Of a stretch of 6,703 nucleotides of DNA, positions 1,301 through 6,703 are shown piece after piece. Both the position numbers and the translations under genes were made by a program. The notes beneath the pieces were generated by a model. That model was not told where the DNA came from, made no database searches, and saw nothing but the letters and a program-made list of their open reading frames with translations. This stretch comes from a virus (lineage: Duplodnaviria; Heunggongvirae; Uroviricota; Caudoviricetes), in the IMG/VR virus record IMGVR_UViG_3300014539_000071, positions 1 through 6,703 of that record. One strand, written 5' to 3'. Positions within the stretch are counted from its first letter, which is position 1; each line of letters starts with the position of its first letter.

Positions 1301-2398
1301 ATGAAAAAATTAACAGTGGCAATTTCTGCTGTAGCTGCATCAGTACTGATGGCGATGTCTGCTCAGGCAGCTGAAATTTATAATAAAGACAGTAACAAGC
1401 TGGATCTGTACGGGAAAGTTAATGCTAAGCACTACTTCTCCTCTAATGATGCAGATGATGGTGATACTACTTATGCCCGTCTTGGCTTCAAAGGTGAAAC
1501 CCAAATCAACGATCAACTGACTGGTTTCGGTCAGTGGGAATATGAATTCAAAGGCAACCGCGCTGAATCTCAAGGTTCCTCCAAAGACAAAACCCGTCTT
1601 GCATTTGCAGGCCTGAAATTCGGTGACTACGGCTCAATCGATTACGGCCGTAACTACGGTGTAGCATACGACATCGGTGCGTGGACTGACGTTCTGCCAG
1701 AATTCGGTGGCGATACCTGGACCCAAACAGATGTGTTCATGACTGGTCGCACCACTGGTGTTGCAACCTATCGTAACAACGACTTCTTTGGTCTGGTTGA
1801 TGGTCTGAACTTTGCTGCTCAGTACCAAGGCAAAAACGATCGTAGCGATTTCGATAACTACACTGAAGGTAACGGTGATGGCTTCGGTTTCTCTGCTACC
1901 TATGAATACGAAGGATTCGGTATCGGTGCAACTTATGCGAAATCTGATCGTACCGACACTCAAGTTAATGCAGGGAAAGTTCTTCCTGAAGTATTTGCTT
2001 CCGGTAAAAATGCAGAAGTTTGGGCCGCAGGTCTGAAATATGACGCTAACAACATTTACCTGGCCACTACCTATTCTGAAACCCAGAATATGACTGTATT
2101 TGCTGATCACTTCGTTGCTAATAAAGCCCAAAACTTCGAAGCTGTTGCACAATATCAGTTCGATTTCGGTCTGCGTCCGTCCGTTGCTTACCTGCAATCT
2201 AAAGGTAAGGATCTTGGAGTATGGGGCGATCAGGACTTAGTCAAATATGTTGATGTAGGTGCAACCTATTACTTCAACAAAAATATGTCTACTTTCGTTG
2301 ATTACAAAATCAACCTGCTTGACAAAAATGACTTCACTAAAGCACTCGGTGTAAGCACTGATGACATCGTTGCTGTAGGTCTGGTTTACCAGTTCTAA
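1301..2398 (+). CDS. nmpC: Outer-membrane general porin of the OmpC/OmpF/PhoE family, NmpC / phage PA-2 Lc-like, apparently intact
   Basis: 365-aa ORF. N-terminal signal peptide [23 protein letters not shown] with AQA|AE cleavage site. Porin hallmarks: AEIYNKD...LDLYGK start of the mature protein and C-terminal ...VAVGLVYQF ending in Phe. Recognised from memory as NmpC/Lc. Opposite strand to the flanking phage genes (moron-like). Confidence 0.93.
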
Positions 2399-3056: not shown

Positions 3057-3197
3057 TCATACTCCTGCTCCTGTCAGGGTTTTGGCGTAATTCTTCAGTA
3101 TTCGGTAATCGGTCAAAACAGAACCGGGGAAACGATATAAGCGCAGACGCCCCCAGCGGTGGCGAAGAAGTTCTGCCATATTAAACTCAAACATCAT
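3057..3197 (-). CDS. ylcG: Small conserved prophage ORF YlcG-like (46 aa)
   Basis: Not in the ORF track (too short). Manual translation of the minus strand gives [46 protein letters not shown], stop TGA 3059..3057. Start ATGATG overlaps the rusA stop codon (ATGA overlap at 3197..3194). Matches my memory of E. coli YlcG and its rusA-ylcG-Q position. Confidence 0.7.
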
Positions 3198-3556
3198 TCA
3201 TTCCCCATTTCGGTGATGGTCAGTTCCAGCCTCCCACCTTTGGTAACAGGCATCTTCACAACGCGGTAATCAACGACCTGAGCATCATCCAGCCAGAAAC
3301 CTGCTTTAGTGAGTGCGTCAAAAGCGGCTTTTTGCAGATTATCCAGGTCACGGCGACGGCGATCCGGCATGTGGCACTCAATGCGGATTTTCACAGGCAT
3401 AGCCAGGCCGATATCCAGCATTGCGTTTTTAATGATTCGGGCGACGTTATCGCGGTATGCCTGCCCCTCTGCGCTGATGTGCGTGCGCCCGCGATTATGG
3501 CGGTAATAGCGATTATTGCTCGGAGGCCAGGGTAATGTGATGCTGTAGGTATTCAC
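3194..3556 (-). CDS. rusA: Holliday-junction resolvase RusA (crossover junction endodeoxyribonuclease)
   Basis: 120-aa [21 protein letters not shown]..., recognised from memory as RusA. Start codon is GTG (3556..3554), preceded by a purine-rich SD AGAGGGGG. Acidic residues within RRRRDLDN are consistent with the RusA active site region. Confidence 0.9.
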
Positions 3557-3559
3557 GCC

Positions 3560-3673
3560 TTAATAACCCCCTCTTTCAGCCAGATAGACGGCCTGCTGTG
3601 AAACTTCGCAGGCAGCGCCTAGTTTCTTTTGTGAACCAACGATATTGATCGCTGTTTTGATGGCTGGGTTCAT
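3560..3673 (-). CDS. Short Cro-like HTH ORF (37 aa), possibly a truncated cro
   Basis: Manual translation: MNPAIKTAINIVGSQKKLGAACEVSQQAVYLAERGGY, stop TAA 3562..3560, 3 nt before the rusA GTG. Strong SD GGAGG (complement of 3679-3683) 5 nt upstream of ATG 3673..3671. GSQKKLGAACEVSQQAVY fits a Cro/CI-type helix-turn-helix, but the ORF ends right after the recognition helix, shorter than typical 60-70 aa Cro proteins. Confidence 0.45.
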   Translation of the reverse strand: MNPAIKTAINIVGSQKKLGAACEVSQQAVYLAERGGY

Positions 3674-3700
3674 AACAACCTCCGTGGTTAATTTGAATCA

Positions 3701-3729
3701 AGATTAAAACTATGGTTGTTTTTAGTCAA
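3701..3729 (-). promoter_or_regulatory. Candidate pR-like sigma-70 promoter driving the Cro-like ORF and rusA-ylcG-Q operon
   Basis: On the minus strand: -35 TTGACT (complement of 3729-3724), exact 17-nt spacer, -10 TAATCT (complement of 3706-3701), then about 25-nt leader to the SD GGAGG and ATG 3673. The -35 and spacer lie inside the palindromic operator at 3712-3736. Confidence 0.45.
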
Positions 3730-3736
3730 CAACCAT
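3712..3736. promoter_or_regulatory. Palindromic operator candidate ATGGTTGTT-N7-AACAACCAT
   Basis: Perfect 9-bp inverted repeat with 7-bp spacer (ATGGTTGTT tttagtc AACAACCAT) centred between the divergent Cro-like and repressor genes. The same half-site (ACAACCA / TGGTTGT) recurs at 3675-3681, 3760-3766 and in a second cluster at 6159-6204. Confidence 0.45.
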
Positions 3737-3742
3737 TTTCGT

Positions 3743-3771
3743 TTGATGAAATAAAACCTTGGTTGTACATT
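3743..3771 (+). promoter_or_regulatory. Candidate pRM-like promoter giving a leaderless repressor mRNA
   Basis: -35 TTGATG (3743-3748), 17-nt spacer, -10 TACATT (3766-3771), placing the transcription start about 7 nt downstream at or near the A of ATG 3778. No Shine-Dalgarno precedes either candidate start (3712 or 3778), as for leaderless lambda cI from pRM. Confidence 0.4.
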
Positions 3772-3777
3772 TGGACT

Positions 3778-4467
3778 ATGAAAACAACACTCTCAGAAAG
3801 ACTTAAAGAAGCCAGATTAGCGCGAGGCCTTACACAAAAGGCGCTTGGGGATTTGGTCGGGGTTAGCCAAGCAGCTATTCAGAAAATCGAAACAGGGAAA
3901 GCTAACCAAACAACTAAAATCGTGGAGATCGCGAACGCTTTGGGTGTGCGCGCAGAATGGTTATCTTCTGGCGTTGGAAATATGTCAGACAGTACAGTGC
4001 AACCAATACAAACAACTGTCAGCCATTCCAAATACTTTAAGATTGACGTTCTTGATATCGAAGTGAGTGCCGGGCCGGGAGTCATCAACCGTGAGTTTGT
4101 AGAAGTTCTACGTTCGGTTGAGTATTCGTTTGACGATGCTCGTCACATGTTCGATGGCAGGAAGGCGGAAAATATCCGTATCATTAACGTACGCGGTGAC
4201 AGCATGTCAGGAACGATCGAACCAGGTGATCTGCTGTTCGTTGATATCACTGTTAAATCTTTCGACGGTGATGGTATCTATGCGTTTCTGTACGACGACA
4301 CAGCCCATGTAAAGCGCCTGCAAATGATGAAGGATAAACTGCTGGTTATCTCTGATAACAAGAGCTACTCACCGTGGGACCCAATCGAGAAAGACGAGAT
4401 GAACCGGGTATTCATCTTCGGGAAAGTCATCGGGAGCATGCCGCAGACGTATAGGAAGCATGGATAA
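3778..4467 (+). CDS. CI/LexA-like repressor: N-terminal XRE-type HTH plus C-terminal S24 autopeptidase domain
   Basis: Track ORF is 3712..4467. I prefer start ATG 3778 (MKTTLSERLKEARLARGLTQKALGDLVGVSQAAIQKIETGK..., 229 aa) because 3712-3777 holds the operator palindrome and pR-like -35. HTH: LTQKALGDLVGVSQAAIQKIETGK. S24 motifs: Ala-Gly candidate cleavage site in VSAGPG (A98-G99 from the 3778 start), nucleophile Ser in RGDSMSG (S142), general-base Lys in HVKRL (K179), with LexA-like Ser-Lys spacing. Confidence 0.85.
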   Translation: MKTTLSERLKEARLARGLTQKALGDLVGVSQAAIQKIETGKANQTTKIVEIANALGVRAEWLSSGVGNMSDSTVQPIQTTVSHSKYFKIDVLDIEVSAGPGVINREFVEVLRSVEYSFDDARHMFDGRKAENIRIINVRGDSMSGTIEPGDLLFVDITVKSFDGDGIYAFLYDDTAHVKRLQMMKDKLLVISDNKSYSPWDPIEKDEMNRVFIFGKVIGSMPQTYRKHG

Positions 4468-4562
4468 TTCGACATAAATTCAACAAGTTAACTTTGGCTT
4501 CAAAAAAGCATCGATAACATTGCATTATATTTTTCCTTTTGTCTAACTTAAAAGGATGAACA

Positions 4563-5288
4563 ATGGAAGAACGTGGGAATTACCTAATAGACCCCCTAGA
4601 AGTAATTGGTTCTGGCGGTTTTGGCCTTGTAGAAAAAATAAGGTTATATAACTCACAAAGAAAAATTTGTGGTCTATATGCCAGAAAAATTTTACGACCT
4701 GATGCAACAGATCCTGAACTCTTTACCAGATTTGAACGAGAAGTAAGATATCAAACTGAATGCCTGCATACTAATATTGTCCAAATATTCATATGCCACT
4801 TACAGAATGCTCAGCCTTGGTTCGTAATGGAACTAGCAGAAACAAATCTTGAAGAAGAAATAAAAAGTGGAACTCTTACAAAGGCTGAAAAAATCTCTAT
4901 TGTAAAAATGGTACTAAATGCCGTCGGATGGATTCATAAGAAAGGATATCTTCATCGGGATATAAAACCACTAAATGTACTAAAATTTAAAGATGGAATT
5001 TATAAGTTATCTGACTTCGGCCTTGCAAAAAATGTGTCACCAGATGCCAATACACAGCTATTAACACAAATTGGCCAATACCCCGCTACTCCTAAATACT
5101 TTGATTACAACGTTTTCCTCAACGGATATTCAAAACAATCAGATATATATTCAATTGGTATTTTAATTGAAGAATTAAATATTGATGGTTTTGATGATAT
5201 AATAAACAAATGTACGCATAGACAACTTAACAAAAGATTCCTGACCGTAGAGCAGATCTTTGAGGAATTGGAGTTGAAACGCTTATGA
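4563..5288 (+). CDS. Compact Hanks-type (eukaryotic-like) Ser/Thr protein kinase, catalytic domain only
   Basis: 241-aa ORF with all core kinase motifs in order: glycine loop GSGGFG, beta3 Lys in YARK, alphaC Glu in FEREV, catalytic loop HRDIKPLN, DFG in SDFGLAK, subdomain IX SDIYSIG. SD AAGGA (4552-4556) 6 nt upstream of the ATG. No extra sensor domain. Low GC by eye relative to the rest of the window. Confidence 0.85.
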   Translation: MEERGNYLIDPLEVIGSGGFGLVEKIRLYNSQRKICGLYARKILRPDATDPELFTRFEREVRYQTECLHTNIVQIFICHLQNAQPWFVMELAETNLEEEIKSGTLTKAEKISIVKMVLNAVGWIHKKGYLHRDIKPLNVLKFKDGIYKLSDFGLAKNVSPDANTQLLTQIGQYPATPKYFDYNVFLNGYSKQSDIYSIGILIEELNIDGFDDIINKCTHRQLNKRFLTVEQIFEELELKRL

Positions 5289-6028
5289 TTAGCATACTCT
5301 CATCATCCATATTTTCTGTACCAAAACATAATGGCAGGGAAAATCAAGATAGCGTGCTTTATCCACTTCAAACACCAAATGGTTATCTTATGGCTATAGC
5401 TGATGGGGTTGGTGGTTATAAAGGAGGAAAAGAAGCATCTGCAGCAGTAATAAATCATTTGTATAGTATTAAAGACAGCTTCACTCATGAAGACAATGTC
5501 TTATCCTTACTTAAGACCCTACAAGAAAAGGTGGCATCTCTTTCGTCAGTTGATAAAGAATTAGCATCTGCTGCTACAACTTTAACAATGTGCCTACTTC
5601 ACAATCAAGGTCTAACAATTATACATGTAGGTGACTGTCGTGTTTATTTAAAAAATGGAAATAAGCTAATCCAATTAACAACAGATCATACTCAACATCA
5701 AATGTTGATAGATAGCGGTATTTATACAGCTCGACAGCTCAAAAATGCAAAAGGTAAAAATATTATTACAACTGCACTTGCTGCCAAGATCCCTCTTCAA
5801 CATCAAGTCATAAATATTGATAAAGATGAACTTCCTCTTGACGATGGTGTTCTATCTCTATTCATCATGTCTGATGGCGCGCATACCTTTTGGGAGCAAC
5901 GCCCACGATTTTCTTACCGTACATTGTCAACCGCATCAAGGTTTGCCTCCAGCCTAATGCGAAGAATAGAGACAAAAGGCCCGACTGACGATTATTCTCT
6001 TATAGCGGTAAATGTAAAGTATTTGTAA
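5285..6028 (+). CDS. PP2C-family (PPM) Ser/Thr protein phosphatase
   Basis: 247-aa ORF. PP2C metal-binding motifs: ENQDS near the N-terminus, DGxGG as ADGVGG, GDSR-like HVGDCRV, LTxDH as LTTDHT, SDG as MSDGAH, and C-terminal DDYSLIAVNV. Start ATG overlaps the kinase stop (ATGA at 5285-5288), implying translational coupling. Confidence 0.8.
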   Translation: MISILSSSIFSVPKHNGRENQDSVLYPLQTPNGYLMAIADGVGGYKGGKEASAAVINHLYSIKDSFTHEDNVLSLLKTLQEKVASLSSVDKELASAATTLTMCLLHNQGLTIIHVGDCRVYLKNGNKLIQLTTDHTQHQMLIDSGIYTARQLKNAKGKNIITTALAAKIPLQHQVINIDKDELPLDDGVLSLFIMSDGAHTFWEQRPRFSYRTLSTASRFASSLMRRIETKGPTDDYSLIAVNVKYL

Positions 6029-6032
6029 ACTT

Positions 6033-6059
6033 CCCGGCCACCGTGCCGGGTTTTCTTTT
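6033..6059 (+). terminator. Intrinsic terminator closing the repressor-kinase-phosphatase operon
   Basis: Stem CCCGGC (6033-6038) pairs with GCCGGG (6045-6050), loop caccgt, followed by TTTTCTTTT (6051-6059), beginning 5 nt after the phosphatase stop. No U-tract on the minus strand, so unidirectional. Confidence 0.7.
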
Positions 6060-6154
6060 ATCCCCTCCCCTCATCACGTATACCGTTCAAAAAACCACCA
6101 CAATCTCCCTTCAGTTATCGCTATGCGATGCAAGTCACAAAATAAATCCATCCT

Positions 6155-6236
6155 AAATACAACCAGTTACATCTAAAACAACCAATAAAACAACTTTTGT
6201 TGTTGACGATAAAACAACTATAGTTTTAAATAAATT
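6155..6236 (+). promoter_or_regulatory. Second operator-like cluster with a candidate pL-like promoter (OL-like region)
   Basis: Repeated half-sites resembling the 3712-3736 operator: ACAACCAG (6159-6166), ACAACCAA (6178-6185), AAAACAACT (6186-6194, 6211-6219). Inverted repeat AACAAC-TTTT-GTTGTT (6189-6204) overlaps a -35-like TTGACG (6203-6208); a weak -10-like TTAAAT follows at 6226-6231 after 17 nt. Promoter call is weak; the half-site clustering is the stronger signal. Confidence 0.3.
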
Positions 6237-6508
6237 CATCGCAACAACACAACGATACGGCAACCACCTGATTCACCGTTGCGATGACCGCTTAGATCCG
6301 CAGCTTGAATTTCAGCAGGCTTCGGGAAGTGCGAGGGGTGAAGCGGACGCGTGAACGTCGGTGTGACCAGCTGAAATCAACTCAACACTTCATACCTCAG
6401 TCGCTTCAACGAGGCGGCTTAGTTATGACAACCGGCGGCCATCCACCGCCTGAATACGCGCAGAAGTCTTTATATGTTCAGCAGCCCAGCTTACGGGCAG
6501 GAGTTTTT

Positions 6509-6703
6509 ATGGTTCATCAACATTACGGAACGCAGACCGTTAATCGCGGTGCGGTCATGCCAGGAATGCTGGTCAAACACAAAGATGGTACCTGGACTGC
6601 ATCAGCTAATTTATGCGGACGGCTATATCTGCATCGCGGCATCGAGCGCACTTATACCCGTGATTTGCTCGTGGAAGTTTTTCTCGACGGACGAGGCAAC
6701 GGC
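6509..6703 (+). CDS. 5' part of an ORF of unknown function running off the right edge of the window
   Basis: The frame is open from 6296 to the window end. ATG 6509 has a strong SD AGGAG (6499-6503) with 5-nt spacer and gives MVHQHYGTQTVNRGAVMPGMLVKHKDGTWTASANLCGRLYLHRGIERTYTRDLLVEVFLDGRGNG... An alternative in-frame ATG at 6425 has a weaker SD. Not in the ORF track, presumably because it has no stop inside the window. I do not recognise the product. Confidence 0.35.
   Translation, partial: MVHQHYGTQTVNRGAVMPGMLVKHKDGTWTASANLCGRLYLHRGIERTYTRDLLVEVFLDGRGNG

What the first reader, a model, noticed from the sequence alone, without database searches (positions are those of the whole stretch)
4563..6028. 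Overlapping Hanks-type kinase and PP2C phosphatase pair in the rexAB position downstream of a CI-like repressor: candidate lysogen-expressed exclusion or abortive-infection module
Seen directly: two ORFs with complete catalytic motif sets for a eukaryotic-like protein kinase (GSGGFG, ARK, HRDIKPLN, DFG) and a PP2C phosphatase (DGxGG, GDCR, LTTDHT, SDG). Their start and stop overlap (ATGA), and they lie directly downstream of, and in the same orientation as, a CI/LexA-like repressor, with a terminator only after the phosphatase. Established knowledge: in lambda this position holds rexA-rexB, co-transcribed with cI in the lysogen; prophage 933W carries a kinase (stk) in its immunity region that aborts infection by HK97 (from memory). 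Inference: the kinase is a phosphorylating effector that is expressed in lysogens and triggered by superinfection, and the PP2C partner is a built-in reset or antidote, a toxin-antitoxin-like logic. I am not aware of a described prophage exclusion module that pairs the kinase with a co-encoded PP2C phosphatase, but I cannot search to confirm novelty. An alternative reading is a self-contained three-gene cassette in which the S24-HTH protein is a damage-responsive regulator of the kinase-phosphatase pair rather than the prophage master repressor.
Basis: partly seen in the sequence, partly recalled or inferred. Interest (0 to 1): 0.88.

Follow-up and report, generated by a model that had tools for sequence, protein, structure and literature searches.

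The report
Prophage kinase–phosphatase pair behind cI
A defective lambda-like prophage carries, in the slot where lambda keeps rexAB, a small mobile two-gene cassette encoding a protein kinase and the phosphatase that should reverse it; it is most likely an untested, minimal relative of known kinase-based anti-phage systems.

Summary
Window 4563-5288 encodes a 241-aa Hanks-type kinase. Window 5285-6028 encodes a 247-aa PP2C phosphatase. The two genes overlap by ATGA. Every catalytic residue is invariant across homologues, and the predicted folds match PknB and PstP/Stp1.

The pair is a low-GC cargo cassette (4468-6032). It sits exactly between the stop codon of a genuine lambdoid cI and a terminator that belongs to the phage backbone. 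This is the rexAB slot, in a DLP12-like prophage that has lost cro, O, P and the nin region.

The S24 repressor is not part of the module. The same cI serves inducible phages that carry other cargo, namely the PADLOC candidates PDC-S42 and PDC-M11. The kinase→PP2C pair, always overlapping, also occurs without that cI:
- behind a different, short CI;
- after Q;
- between the lysis genes and terminase;
- in a P4-like satellite;
- next to Gabija GajA;
- next to ThsB-like TIR genes;
- as chromosomal islets.

It is only 26% identical to 933W Stk, and it fails the definitions of KKP and TerY-P. I found no paper that tests this pair.

Best reading (about 0.55): a lysogen-expressed, toxin-antitoxin-like phosphorylation switch for phage exclusion. 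The function is inferred from context, not shown. It is a new variant of a known kind, of moderate interest.

The parts
3576..3673 (-). Truncated cro (YdaS-family HTH). About 32 codons remain, from ATG 3673 to the stop at about 3576-3578. The rest was lost in the deletion whose junction is at 3584-3586.
   Evidence: An intact 77-aa cro is annotated in TB06053. Homology to that prophage begins at window 3584, and rusA-side homology ends at 3586.
3680..3774 (.). Divergent cro/cI control region (OR-like). It contains a perfect 9-bp inverted repeat, ATGGTTGTT-N7-AACAACCAT, at 3712-3736.
   Evidence: zero-mismatch palindrome. The position lies between divergent cro and cI. The operator role is inferred.
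3775..4467 (+). cI repressor (HTH_3 + Peptidase_S24), 230 aa from the RefSeq start. It is backbone, not part of the cassette.
   Evidence: Pfam S24 1.5e-18 and HTH_3 6.5e-13. PHROG 4 at 5.8e-73 and CI-like repressor PHROG 6201 at 2e-46. The homologous gene (about 97% nt identity) is annotated as cI in inducible phages PhiR47_2, IdasGreatGrand and Turner.
4468..4562 (+). Cassette leader. It has no terminator and no strong sigma-70 promoter (best candidate 8/12). An AAGGA ribosome-binding site lies 7 nt before the kinase ATG.
   Evidence: sequence.
4563..5288 (+). Minimal Hanks-type Ser/Thr protein kinase, 241 aa, kinase domain only.
   Evidence: Pfam Pkinase 3.2e-32. Invariant residues are G18, G21, K42, E60, H131, R132, D133, K135, N138, D151, F152, G153, T168, D194 and R225. 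AF2 pLDDT is 87.7, with top PDB matches to PknB. It belongs to a discrete family of 241-260-aa proteins.
5285..6028 (+). PP2C (PPM) Ser/Thr phosphatase, 247 aa, overlapping the kinase stop codon (ATGA).
   Evidence: Pfam PP2C_2 4.8e-12. The NCBIfam Stp1/IreP model matches over its full length at 1.2e-31. Invariant residues are D22, D40, G41, G43, H114, G116, D117, R119, D134, T136, S196, D197, G198, D235 and D236. AF2 pLDDT is 93.1, TM 0.83 to S. aureus Stp1, top E-value to PstP.
4468..6032 (+). The whole exchangeable cargo cassette: leader, kinase and PP2C. GC is 35%, against 47-48% in the flanks.
   Evidence: blastn boundaries against L002, L097 and L099, which carry other cargo. GC content.
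6033..6058 (+). Intrinsic terminator of the immunity operon (CCCGGCcaccgtGCCGGG + TTTTCTTTT). It is part of the conserved backbone.
   Evidence: It is shared with prophages that carry different cargo.
6160..6230 (+). OL/pL-like region: GTTGTT/AACAAC-rich imperfect inverted repeats and a possible TTGACG-N17-TTAAAT promoter.
   Evidence: sequence. The role is inferred from the position upstream of kil-gam-bet-exo.
6510..6703 (+). Start of kil (phage cell-division inhibitor), which runs off the window.
   Evidence: Annotated in TB06053 at the homologous position. The alignment offset is given.

Best explanation
The kinase and PP2C form an autonomous, horizontally mobile two-gene accessory cassette (a 'moron'). 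It was dropped between the cI stop codon and the immunity-operon terminator of a DLP12-like lambdoid prophage. There it should be transcribed with cI from pRM in the lysogen, as rexAB is in lambda.

[quoted passage not shown] The translationally coupled PP2C would keep the kinase's activation loop (invariant T168) and its substrates dephosphorylated. A superinfecting phage would tip the balance, either by inhibiting or titrating the phosphatase or by activating the kinase. The unrestrained kinase would then phosphorylate host and/or phage proteins and abort or exclude the infection.

Shown: both enzymes are intact and conserved, they are coupled, and the cassette boundaries, mobility and contexts are as described. 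Inferred: co-transcription with cI, kinase toxicity, the antidote role of the phosphatase, and the defence phenotype itself.
For: - Cassette limits lie at the cI stop codon and at a shared backbone terminator. There is no terminator and no strong promoter in the 95-nt gap.
- In sister prophages the same slot holds the PADLOC defence candidates PDC-S42 (3e-86) and PDC-M11A/B, annotated GevT/GevA toxin-antitoxin (2e-133 and 7e-52).
- 933W-type phages hold stk in the equivalent slot.
- The pair recurs as kinase→PP2C with a 1-13-nt overlap in every lineage examined. These are Yersinia beside a ThsB-like TIR (9e-55) with a PDC-S60-like NTPase, or beside PDC-M38A/B; P. koreensis beside Gabija GajA (2e-208); a Klebsiella P4-like satellite next to the alpha-type primase; and Raoultella/Klebsiella Rac-like prophages behind a short non-S24 CI.
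- The prophage here has lost cro, O and P yet keeps cI plus cargo.
- Purifying selection acts on both genes.
- There is precedent that a prophage kinase/PP2C set works as a type VII-like toxin-antitoxin defence triggered when a phage protein inhibits the phosphatase: KKP, PMC11341870.
Against: - There is no functional evidence for this family, and I found no paper on it.
- Neither protein has a sensor domain.
- In several phages the pair lies in late-operon territory: after Q in phiES15, and between the lysis genes and terminase in Flotzy and in K. pneumoniae prophages, in some of the latter beside an Acb2/Tad1-like anti-defence gene. That placement would also fit a role in lytic growth.
- Some copies are plain chromosomal islets with no defence neighbours.
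- PADLOC has no dedicated model. The kinase hits only generic kinase models (mad6, PD-T4-6, Stk2), and the PP2C hits PDC-M21C weakly at 8e-9.
- Toxicity of a single minimal kinase is assumed; in KKP neither kinase was toxic alone.
Confidence: 0.55

Rival explanations
1. Lytic-cycle host-takeover or counter-defence module. The kinase would phosphorylate host proteins, including defence systems, when the phage grows lytically, as the T7 kinase does. The PP2C would limit or time this activity.
For: - The pair lies downstream of Q in phiES15.
- It lies between the lysis genes and terminase in Flotzy and in K. pneumoniae prophages, and in two of the four Klebsiella loci shown (L104, L105) an Acb2/Tad1-hairpin gene is about 0.7 kb away.
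- The T7 kinase is reported to disarm defences by pervasive phosphorylation (PMC13645617, abstract seen).
Against: - In this window, and in the Rac-like prophages, the pair sits in the repressor operon, which is active in lysogens.
- It is retained in a prophage that can no longer replicate.
- It occurs in non-phage defence islands, a satellite and chromosomal islets.
- A strictly coupled antagonist phosphatase fits long-term carriage better than a one-shot lytic weapon.
Confidence: 0.13
2. Regulator of lysogeny or host physiology. Kinase/phosphatase balance would modify a host nucleoid protein, cI itself or another regulator, and so tune prophage induction or host traits. This would match the first function described for KKP. 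Phage exclusion would be absent or secondary.
For: - KKP controls Pf prophage activation through MvaU phosphorylation.
- The module lies next to the lysis-lysogeny switch here and in the Rac-like prophages.
Against: - The cassette is interchangeable with unrelated cargo behind the same cI.
- It works with two different cI DNA-binding domains and with a non-S24 CI.
- It also sits in non-prophage contexts, so it cannot be tailored to one switch.
Confidence: 0.12
3. Pure addiction (post-segregational killing) module. It would stabilise whatever element carries it, with no role in phage infection.
For: It has a two-gene, overlapping, patchy, horizontally mobile distribution, including an Arsenophonus plasmid and small islets.
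Against: - Prophage slots and defence-island neighbours are over-represented among the contexts seen.
- Addiction needs a labile antidote, for which there is no evidence.
- Many toxin-antitoxin systems once assigned this role turned out to defend against phages.
Confidence: 0.1
4. Self-contained three-gene cassette in which the S24-HTH protein is a damage-responsive regulator dedicated to the kinase-phosphatase pair.
For: Same strand and close spacing, with only one terminator after the third gene.
Against: - The same gene is the cI of inducible phages that have other cargo, or no match to this cassette, in that slot.
- It pairs divergently with cro and sits in a complete lambdoid early region.
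- The kinase-PP2C pair is found without it in every non-E. coli context.
- Backbone homology breaks exactly at the cI stop codon.
Confidence: 0.02
5. Ordinary housekeeping Ser/Thr signalling pair of the Stk1/Stp1 or PknB/PstP type.
For: The closest solved structures and NCBIfam models are Stk1/PknB and Stp1/PstP.
Against: - Scores are far below the equivalog cut-offs: 105 against 450 bits, and 110 against 230 bits.
- There is no PASTA or transmembrane region, and the gene order is reversed.
- It is present in only 15 of 5426 complete E. coli genomes, always inside a prophage in those inspected.
- The cassette GC is foreign.
Confidence: 0.02

Closest known systems
KKP (PfkA/PfkB/PfpC) kinase-kinase-phosphatase module of Pf6 and other prophages (Guo et al. 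2024, PMC11341870)
   Same: It is prophage- or satellite-borne in Gram-negatives. It combines Hanks-type kinase(s) with a PF13672 PP2C. It was shown to act as a toxin-antitoxin in which the phosphatase is the antidote, and to defend against lytic phages when a phage protein (T4 Gp59) inhibits the phosphatase. This is the best mechanistic analogue.
   Different: KKP is defined by two kinases carrying C-terminal CSD and FHA domains, by gene order PP2C-kinase-kinase, and by genes of 900-1300 bp. The module here has one bare 241-aa kinase followed by a 247-aa PP2C. In KKP neither kinase was toxic alone. I could not compare sequences directly because no KKP sequence was available.
Stk of phage 933W / phi24B (Friedman et al. 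2011, cited in PMC9122126)
   Same: It is a eukaryotic-like kinase encoded downstream of cI, before the immunity-operon terminator. It is reported to abort HK97 infection when activated by the incoming phage.
   Different: Identity is 26% over 218 residues. Stk is 348 aa with a C-terminal extension and has HFD in place of HRD. It has no phosphatase partner; its neighbours are DUF3024 and a RuvC-like resolvase.
lambda rexA-rexB
   Same: It occupies the same slot (between cI and the terminator that precedes OL/pL) and is presumably co-transcribed with cI in lysogens.
   Different: There is no protein similarity; rexAB encodes a sensor and a membrane protein, not enzymes of phosphorylation. The analogy is positional only.
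PD-T4-6 and Stk2 single-gene kinase defences
   Same: PADLOC kinase models match the catalytic core: PD-T4-6 at 1.5e-34 and Stk2 at 1.9e-27. Automated tools would probably label the kinase PD-T4-6-like.
   Different: The matches cover only the generic kinase core (for example positions 15-205 of 327). Those systems are longer single proteins without a coupled PP2C.
TerY-P triad (TerY vWA protein + PP2C + Ser/Thr kinase; from my own knowledge of Gao et al. 2020 and Anantharaman et al. 2012)
   Same: It is a defence-associated operon that combines a kinase with a PP2C phosphatase.
   Different: It requires a TerY/vWA component, which is absent here. No TerY-P model appeared among the PADLOC matches listed (one search lists only the best 25 of 34 kinase families).
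Stk1/Stp1 and PknB/PstP housekeeping pairs
   Same: They are the closest solved folds and sequence models for both proteins, and the kinase and phosphatase genes are adjacent.
   Different: Those kinases are membrane proteins with PASTA domains, the phosphatase gene comes first, and they are core chromosomal genes. The pair here is cytoplasmic, minimal, mobile and rare.

Membership tests
Hanks-type (eukaryotic-like) protein kinase superfamily | Gly-rich loop, beta3 Lys, alphaC Glu, HRDxKxxN catalytic loop, DFG, subdomain IX Asp and XI Arg | tested here: met
   All are present and invariant in 28 homologues. Pfam Pkinase scores 112 bits against a 31.7 cut-off.
Hanks-type (eukaryotic-like) protein kinase superfamily | Bilobal kinase fold | tested here: met
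   AF2 pLDDT 87.7 and pTM 0.86. Foldseek top hits are PknB, E 2e-14, TM 0.71-0.76. The activation loop (156-172) is of low confidence.
PPM/PP2C phosphatases | Metal-binding Asp residues of motifs 1, 2, 8 and 11, plus the GDxR motif | tested here: met
   D22, D40, G41, G43, G116, D117, R119, D197, G198, D235 and D236 are invariant. PP2C_2 scores 46 bits against a 24 cut-off.
PPM/PP2C phosphatases | PP2C beta-sandwich fold | tested here: met
   AF2 pLDDT 93.1. Matches PstP (E 3e-15) and Stp1 (TM 0.83).
KKP (PfkA/PfkB/PfpC) | Two adjacent kinases | tested here: not met
   There is only one kinase ORF in the cassette, and homologous loci also have one.
KKP (PfkA/PfkB/PfpC) | PfkA-type kinase fused to a cold-shock domain; PfkB-type kinase fused to FHA | tested here: not met
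   The kinase is 241 aa with only kinase-domain Pfam families (Pkinase, PK_Tyr_Ser-Thr) above cut-off, and no CSD or FHA hit.
KKP (PfkA/PfkB/PfpC) | Gene order PP2C then kinases; genes of 900-1300 bp | tested here: not met
   The order is kinase then PP2C; the genes are 726 and 744 bp. Definition taken.
KKP (PfkA/PfkB/PfpC) | Kinase toxicity neutralised by phosphatase activity; defence phenotype | not testable with these tools
   This needs expression and phage-challenge experiments.
933W Stk family | Close sequence relationship to Stk | tested here: not met
   26% identity, pairwise E 7e-14. tblastn E is 3e-7, against 1e-59 for true family members.
933W Stk family | Located in the cI immunity operon | tested here: met
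RexAB | RexA and RexB proteins | tested here: not met
   The two cassette proteins are a kinase and a PP2C by Pfam, NCBIfam, PHROGs and fold. Only the position is shared.
PD-T4-6 | Full-length match to the single-gene kinase system | tested here: inconclusive
   The best model scores 1.5e-34 but covers only positions 15-205 of 327. A partner PP2C is not part of that system.
TerY-P triad | TerY/vWA protein adjacent to the kinase and PP2C | tested here: not met
   There is no third ORF in the cassette. Neighbours in other loci are unrelated to each other.
Stk1/Stp1 (PknB/PstP) housekeeping pair | Equivalog-level score; PASTA/transmembrane kinase; phosphatase gene first | tested here: not met
   Scores are 105 against 450 bits and 110 against 230 bits. 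The kinase is 241 aa with no extra domain, and the gene order is reversed.
Type VII toxin-antitoxin systems | Antitoxin enzymatically modifies and neutralises the toxin | not testable with these tools
   Suggested only by the enzyme pairing, the invariant activation-loop T168 and the analogy with KKP.
Lambdoid cI repressor (for the upstream gene) | HTH + S24 autopeptidase, divergent from cro, with operators, in a lambdoid early region | tested here: met
   A palindrome lies at 3712-3736.

The most novel reading that the evidence does not exclude
The pair is the minimal form of a phosphorylation-based immune switch: one bare kinase and one bare PP2C with no sensor domain. In this reading the phosphatase itself would be the guarded target that phages hit. 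Temperate phages of Enterobacterales would shuttle the cassette among at least three different moron slots, satellites and defence islands. It might serve two purposes, excluding rivals in the lysogen and modifying the host during lytic growth.
Probability: 0.2. Interest if true: 0.65.

Novelty: new variant of a known kind. Interest (0 to 1): 0.45.

Why it matters
Kinase-based phage defence is known from a few cases: 933W Stk, Stk2, PD-T4-6 and KKP. How infection is sensed, and which phosphorylations matter, remain poorly understood. A two-protein, roughly 1.5-kb module with no accessory domains, carried in E. coli prophages, would be a much simpler experimental system than the three-gene KKP. 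It could be used to ask whether the phosphatase is the sensor, what the lethal or protective substrates are, and whether the arrest is reversible.

The comparative data also show that the slot between cI and its terminator in this lambdoid lineage exchanges candidate defence cargo. That makes it a practical place to look for further systems.

If the cassette has no defence phenotype, it would point to a different, so far undescribed, use of reversible phosphorylation by temperate phages.

Tried and rejected
- The scan of genome contigs with the kinase alignment was swamped by generic kinases, because the patterns HRDIKPxN and YKxSDFG are not specific. Only one true family locus (L003) came out. 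I switched to exact-protein look-ups.
- PADLOC gave no dedicated model. The PDC-M21C hit to the PP2C is weak (8e-9; 3e-6 or nothing for homologues), and no PDC-M21 kinase component appeared among the matches listed. I therefore rejected 'member of PDC-M21'. A literature search for PDC-M21 returned nothing.
- Rfam on the whole window returned no hits. Folding of the 6225-6512 leader was not better than shuffles, z -0.78, so there is no evidence for a put/nut-like RNA.
- Upstream regions of the kinase in 12 contexts share no conserved leader or promoter, so I rejected a cassette-borne conserved promoter.
- The operator pattern search was not significant beyond the one perfect palindrome.
- Literature searches for GevT/GevA, the phage names, and two-gene kinase-phosphatase defence found nothing specific.
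- I could not obtain KKP protein sequences for a direct comparison. The PP2C tblastn against phage records found only Flotzy and phiES15 as family members.
- No complete E. coli genome contains the window's rusA-cro junction, so the exact source strain was not identified.
Full report
**What is in the window**

The 6.7-kb window is part of a defective lambdoid prophage.
- On the minus strand lie an RrrD-type lysozyme (8-514), a P21-type holin (514-729), antiterminator Q (2588-2986) and RusA (3194-3556).
- An intact OmpC/NmpC-type porin (1301-2398) lies on the plus strand between Q and the holin.
- This gene order matches DLP12-like elements at argU.
- To the right of rusA come a cro stub, a divergent control region, cI (3775-4467), the kinase (4563-5288), the PP2C (5285-6028), a terminator (6033-6050 plus a T run), an operator/promoter-like region, and the start of kil at 6510.
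- Compared with the intact prophage of strain TB06053, which is 99.7% identical from 3584 to the end of the window, about 5.2 kb is missing. The lost segment covers the nin genes, ren, P, O, the YdaT-type gene and most of cro. The deletion junction is at 3584-3586.
- No complete E. coli genome in the collection has this junction.

**Check of the observation**

- Both ORFs, the ATGA overlap and all eight motifs are there. The S24-HTH gene lies upstream on the same strand. The only terminator-like site follows the phosphatase.
- Pfam places both proteins above the gathering thresholds: Pkinase 3.2e-32 and PP2C_2 4.8e-12.
- The kinase belongs to a sharply delimited family of 241-260-aa proteins, with E-values from 1e-158 down to 1e-46 and then a drop to generic kinases at 1e-27. 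Within it the Gly-loop glycines, K42, E60, H131, R132, D133, K135, N138, D151, F152, G153, an activation-loop Thr (T168), D194 and R225 are invariant.
- The PP2C family is equally compact. About 20 clusters at 50% identity score below 1e-55 among 1.84 billion representatives. The metal-binding aspartates D22, D40, D197, D235 and D236 and the GDxR motif are invariant.
- The AlphaFold models are confident, with pLDDT 87.7 and 93.1. They match the PknB kinase domain and PstP/Stp1 respectively, in agreement with profile searches of PDB sequences.
- Against the Yersinia pair, dN/dS is 0.09 for the kinase and 0.13 for the PP2C.
- The refutation test 'catalytic residues are not conserved in homologues' therefore fails. 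Both enzymes are almost certainly active.

**Where the pair sits**

- The S24-HTH gene is a genuine prophage repressor. A near-identical gene (about 97% nt identity) is annotated cI in the inducible phages PhiR47_2, IdasGreatGrand, Turner and others. It pairs divergently with cro and sits in a standard cro-cII-like-O-P / kil-gam-bet-exo layout.
- Pairwise blastn against sister prophages with different cargo shows that homology ends at window 4466-4468, the cI stop codon. It resumes at 6032/6033, the first base of the terminator stem.
- The cassette is thus 4468-6032, with 35% GC against 47-48% in the flanks. The terminator belongs to the phage backbone.
- The 95-nt leader contains no terminator and only an 8/12 promoter-like match.
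- The simplest reading is therefore transcription with cI from pRM, exactly as for lambda rexAB. This is an inference; no expression data exist.

**The slot is a cargo hotspot**

- Behind the same cI, other E. coli prophages carry one of three alternatives. One is a 313-aa protein matching PADLOC candidate PDC-S42 (3e-86). Another is a two-gene unit annotated GevT/GevA toxin-antitoxin, matching PDC-M11A/B (2e-133 and 7e-52). The third is an unassigned 287-aa protein.
- The kinase-PP2C cassette is the rare variant. It covers at least 80% of the query in 15 of 5426 complete genomes, while 2210 genomes match parts of the backbone.
- In two of those 15 genomes it sits behind a cI with a different N-terminal DNA-binding domain, with a breakpoint near window 4016.

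**The pair is an autonomous mobile unit**

In every lineage I inspected, the kinase is followed directly by the PP2C with a 1-13-nt overlap, and the S24 gene is absent. The contexts are:
- Yersinia enterocolitica, beside a ThsB-like TIR protein (9e-55) with a PDC-S60-like NTPase, or beside PDC-M38A/B.
- A Klebsiella P4-like satellite, next to the alpha-type primase.
- Pseudomonas koreensis, next to Gabija GajA (2e-208) and IS genes.
- Acinetobacter and Xanthomonas chromosomal islets.
- An Arsenophonus plasmid.
- Raoultella/Klebsiella Rac-like prophages, directly behind a 131-aa non-S24 CI. Here the kinase is 87% and the PP2C 73% identical.
- Cronobacter phage phiES15, between Q and the lysis genes.
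- E. coli phage Flotzy and K. pneumoniae prophages, between the lysis genes and terminase. In two of the four Klebsiella loci shown it lies beside an Acb2/Tad1-hairpin gene.

This rules out the 'three-gene cassette' alternative. The unit behaves like a moron or defence cassette.

**How it probably works**

- The two proteins consist of nothing but catalytic domains, so any sensing must act on the enzymes themselves or on their balance.
- The invariant activation-loop threonine suggests the kinase is switched on by (auto)phosphorylation, as in PknB-type kinases. A coupled PP2C would reverse this.
- The best-documented analogue is KKP. There, two prophage kinases are jointly toxic, the PP2C PfpC is the antidote, and T4 Gp59 binds and partly inhibits PfpC to unleash the kinases.
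- By analogy I propose a lysogen-expressed switch in which infection disturbs the phosphatase or activates the kinase, as reported for 933W Stk with HK97. The resulting phosphorylation of host or phage proteins would then abort or exclude the infection.
- The support is contextual. The slot exchanges defence candidates, defence genes are neighbours elsewhere, the pair is carried by a satellite, and it is retained with cI in a prophage that has lost its replication genes.
- None of the functional steps is shown. I put this reading at about 0.55.

**Rivals**

- The late-operon positions and the Acb2/Tad1 neighbour keep open a role in lytic growth, as host takeover or counter-defence in the manner of the T7 kinase (PMC13645617, abstract). 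I put this at about 0.13.
- KKP's other function, control of prophage induction, is a second possibility at about 0.12. However, the cassette's indifference to which repressor or locus it accompanies argues against a tailored regulatory role.
- A pure addiction module has about 0.10.
- A housekeeping Stk/Stp pair is very unlikely. NCBIfam scores are far below the equivalog cut-offs, there are no PASTA or transmembrane parts, the gene order is reversed, the GC is foreign, and the pair occurs in 0.3% of genomes.

**Comparison with known systems**

- The module works like KKP but is not a member. It has one kinase rather than two, no CSD or FHA domains, the opposite gene order, and genes below KKP's size window.
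- It shares the slot and enzyme class of 933W Stk but only 26% identity, and Stk has no phosphatase.
- PADLOC's PD-T4-6, mad6 and Stk2 models hit only the generic kinase core.
- The TerY-P triad, recalled from memory, needs a vWA protein that is absent.
- I found no paper describing or testing a two-gene kinase-PP2C defence. Searches of about 8 million papers and preprints returned only KKP as relevant. The P2/P4 hotspot studies and the E. coli functional-selection study do not mention it.

**Verdict**

- This is a new variant of a known kind, namely a minimal single-kinase/PP2C cassette related in logic to KKP.
- Interest is moderate. A specialist would not be surprised that a prophage kinase-phosphatase pair sits in a defence slot. 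The system is nonetheless unusually small, is carried by E. coli prophages and is directly testable.

Noticed in passing
window 3556-3673 (junction 3584-3586): A deletion of about 5.2 kb relative to the intact TB06053-type prophage fuses a roughly 32-codon cro stub to the start of rusA. It removes the nin genes, ren, P, O and the YdaT-type gene. No complete E. coli genome in the collection shares this junction. Some DLP12-like prophages have a similar but different fusion of quuD to a cro stub.
   Followed up: partly
window 1301-2398 (+), with a 32-34% GC stretch at 800-1400: An intact 365-aa OmpC/NmpC-type porin gene (Porin_1, 1e-156) lies between Q and the holin on the opposite strand, as in DLP12.
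   Followed up: no
window 3712-3736 and 6166-6228: A perfect 9-bp inverted repeat, ATGGTTGTT-N7-AACAACCAT, overlaps the first in-frame ATG of the long cI ORF. Related GTTGTT/AACAAC imperfect repeats lie downstream of the terminator. These are probably the OR and OL operators. The pattern search was not significant beyond the one perfect site.
   Followed up: partly
window 6057-6509: About 450 nt between the immunity terminator and kil have no ORF of 40 aa or more on the + strand and no N-like gene. Rfam finds nothing, and the predicted fold is no better than shuffles (z -0.78). How early leftward transcription is antiterminated in this phage group is unclear.
   Followed up: partly
L097 3458-4399; L002 4953-6381; L099 6184-7047: The same slot between cI and the terminator carries other cargo in sister prophages. 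These are a 313-aa PDC-S42 match, a PDC-M11A/B match annotated GevT/GevA toxin-antitoxin (I found no paper on it), and an unassigned 287-aa protein. This slot would be a good place to mine for further systems.
   Followed up: partly
L098 (H14/H15), breakpoint at about window 4016: Two genomes carry the cassette behind a cI whose N-terminal DNA-binding half is different (different immunity). The C-terminal S24 half and the cassette are 97% identical, which indicates recombination within cI.
   Followed up: no
L104 and L105 5261-5545: In two of the four K. pneumoniae prophage loci shown, the kinase-PP2C pair lies about 0.7 kb downstream of a gene with an Acb2/Tad1 hairpin domain (an anti-CBASS/anti-Thoeris sponge family), between the lysis genes and terminase.
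   Followed up: no
L083-L085 (Yersinia enterocolitica): The genes flanking the pair differ between strains. One strain has a ThsB-like TIR with a PDC-S60-like NTPase; others have PDC-M38A/B. All lie next to a very large polyvalent protein (LPD/MuF domains) and a Deam_C/DUF6911 pair. This looks like a variable defence island on a mobile element.
   Followed up: partly
kinase residues 174-185 (window about 5082-5117): In the Enterobacterales clade the usual APE motif at the end of the activation segment is replaced by PKYFD, while more distant members keep Y(M/I)APE. The AF2 activation loop (156-172) is of low confidence.
   Followed up: no
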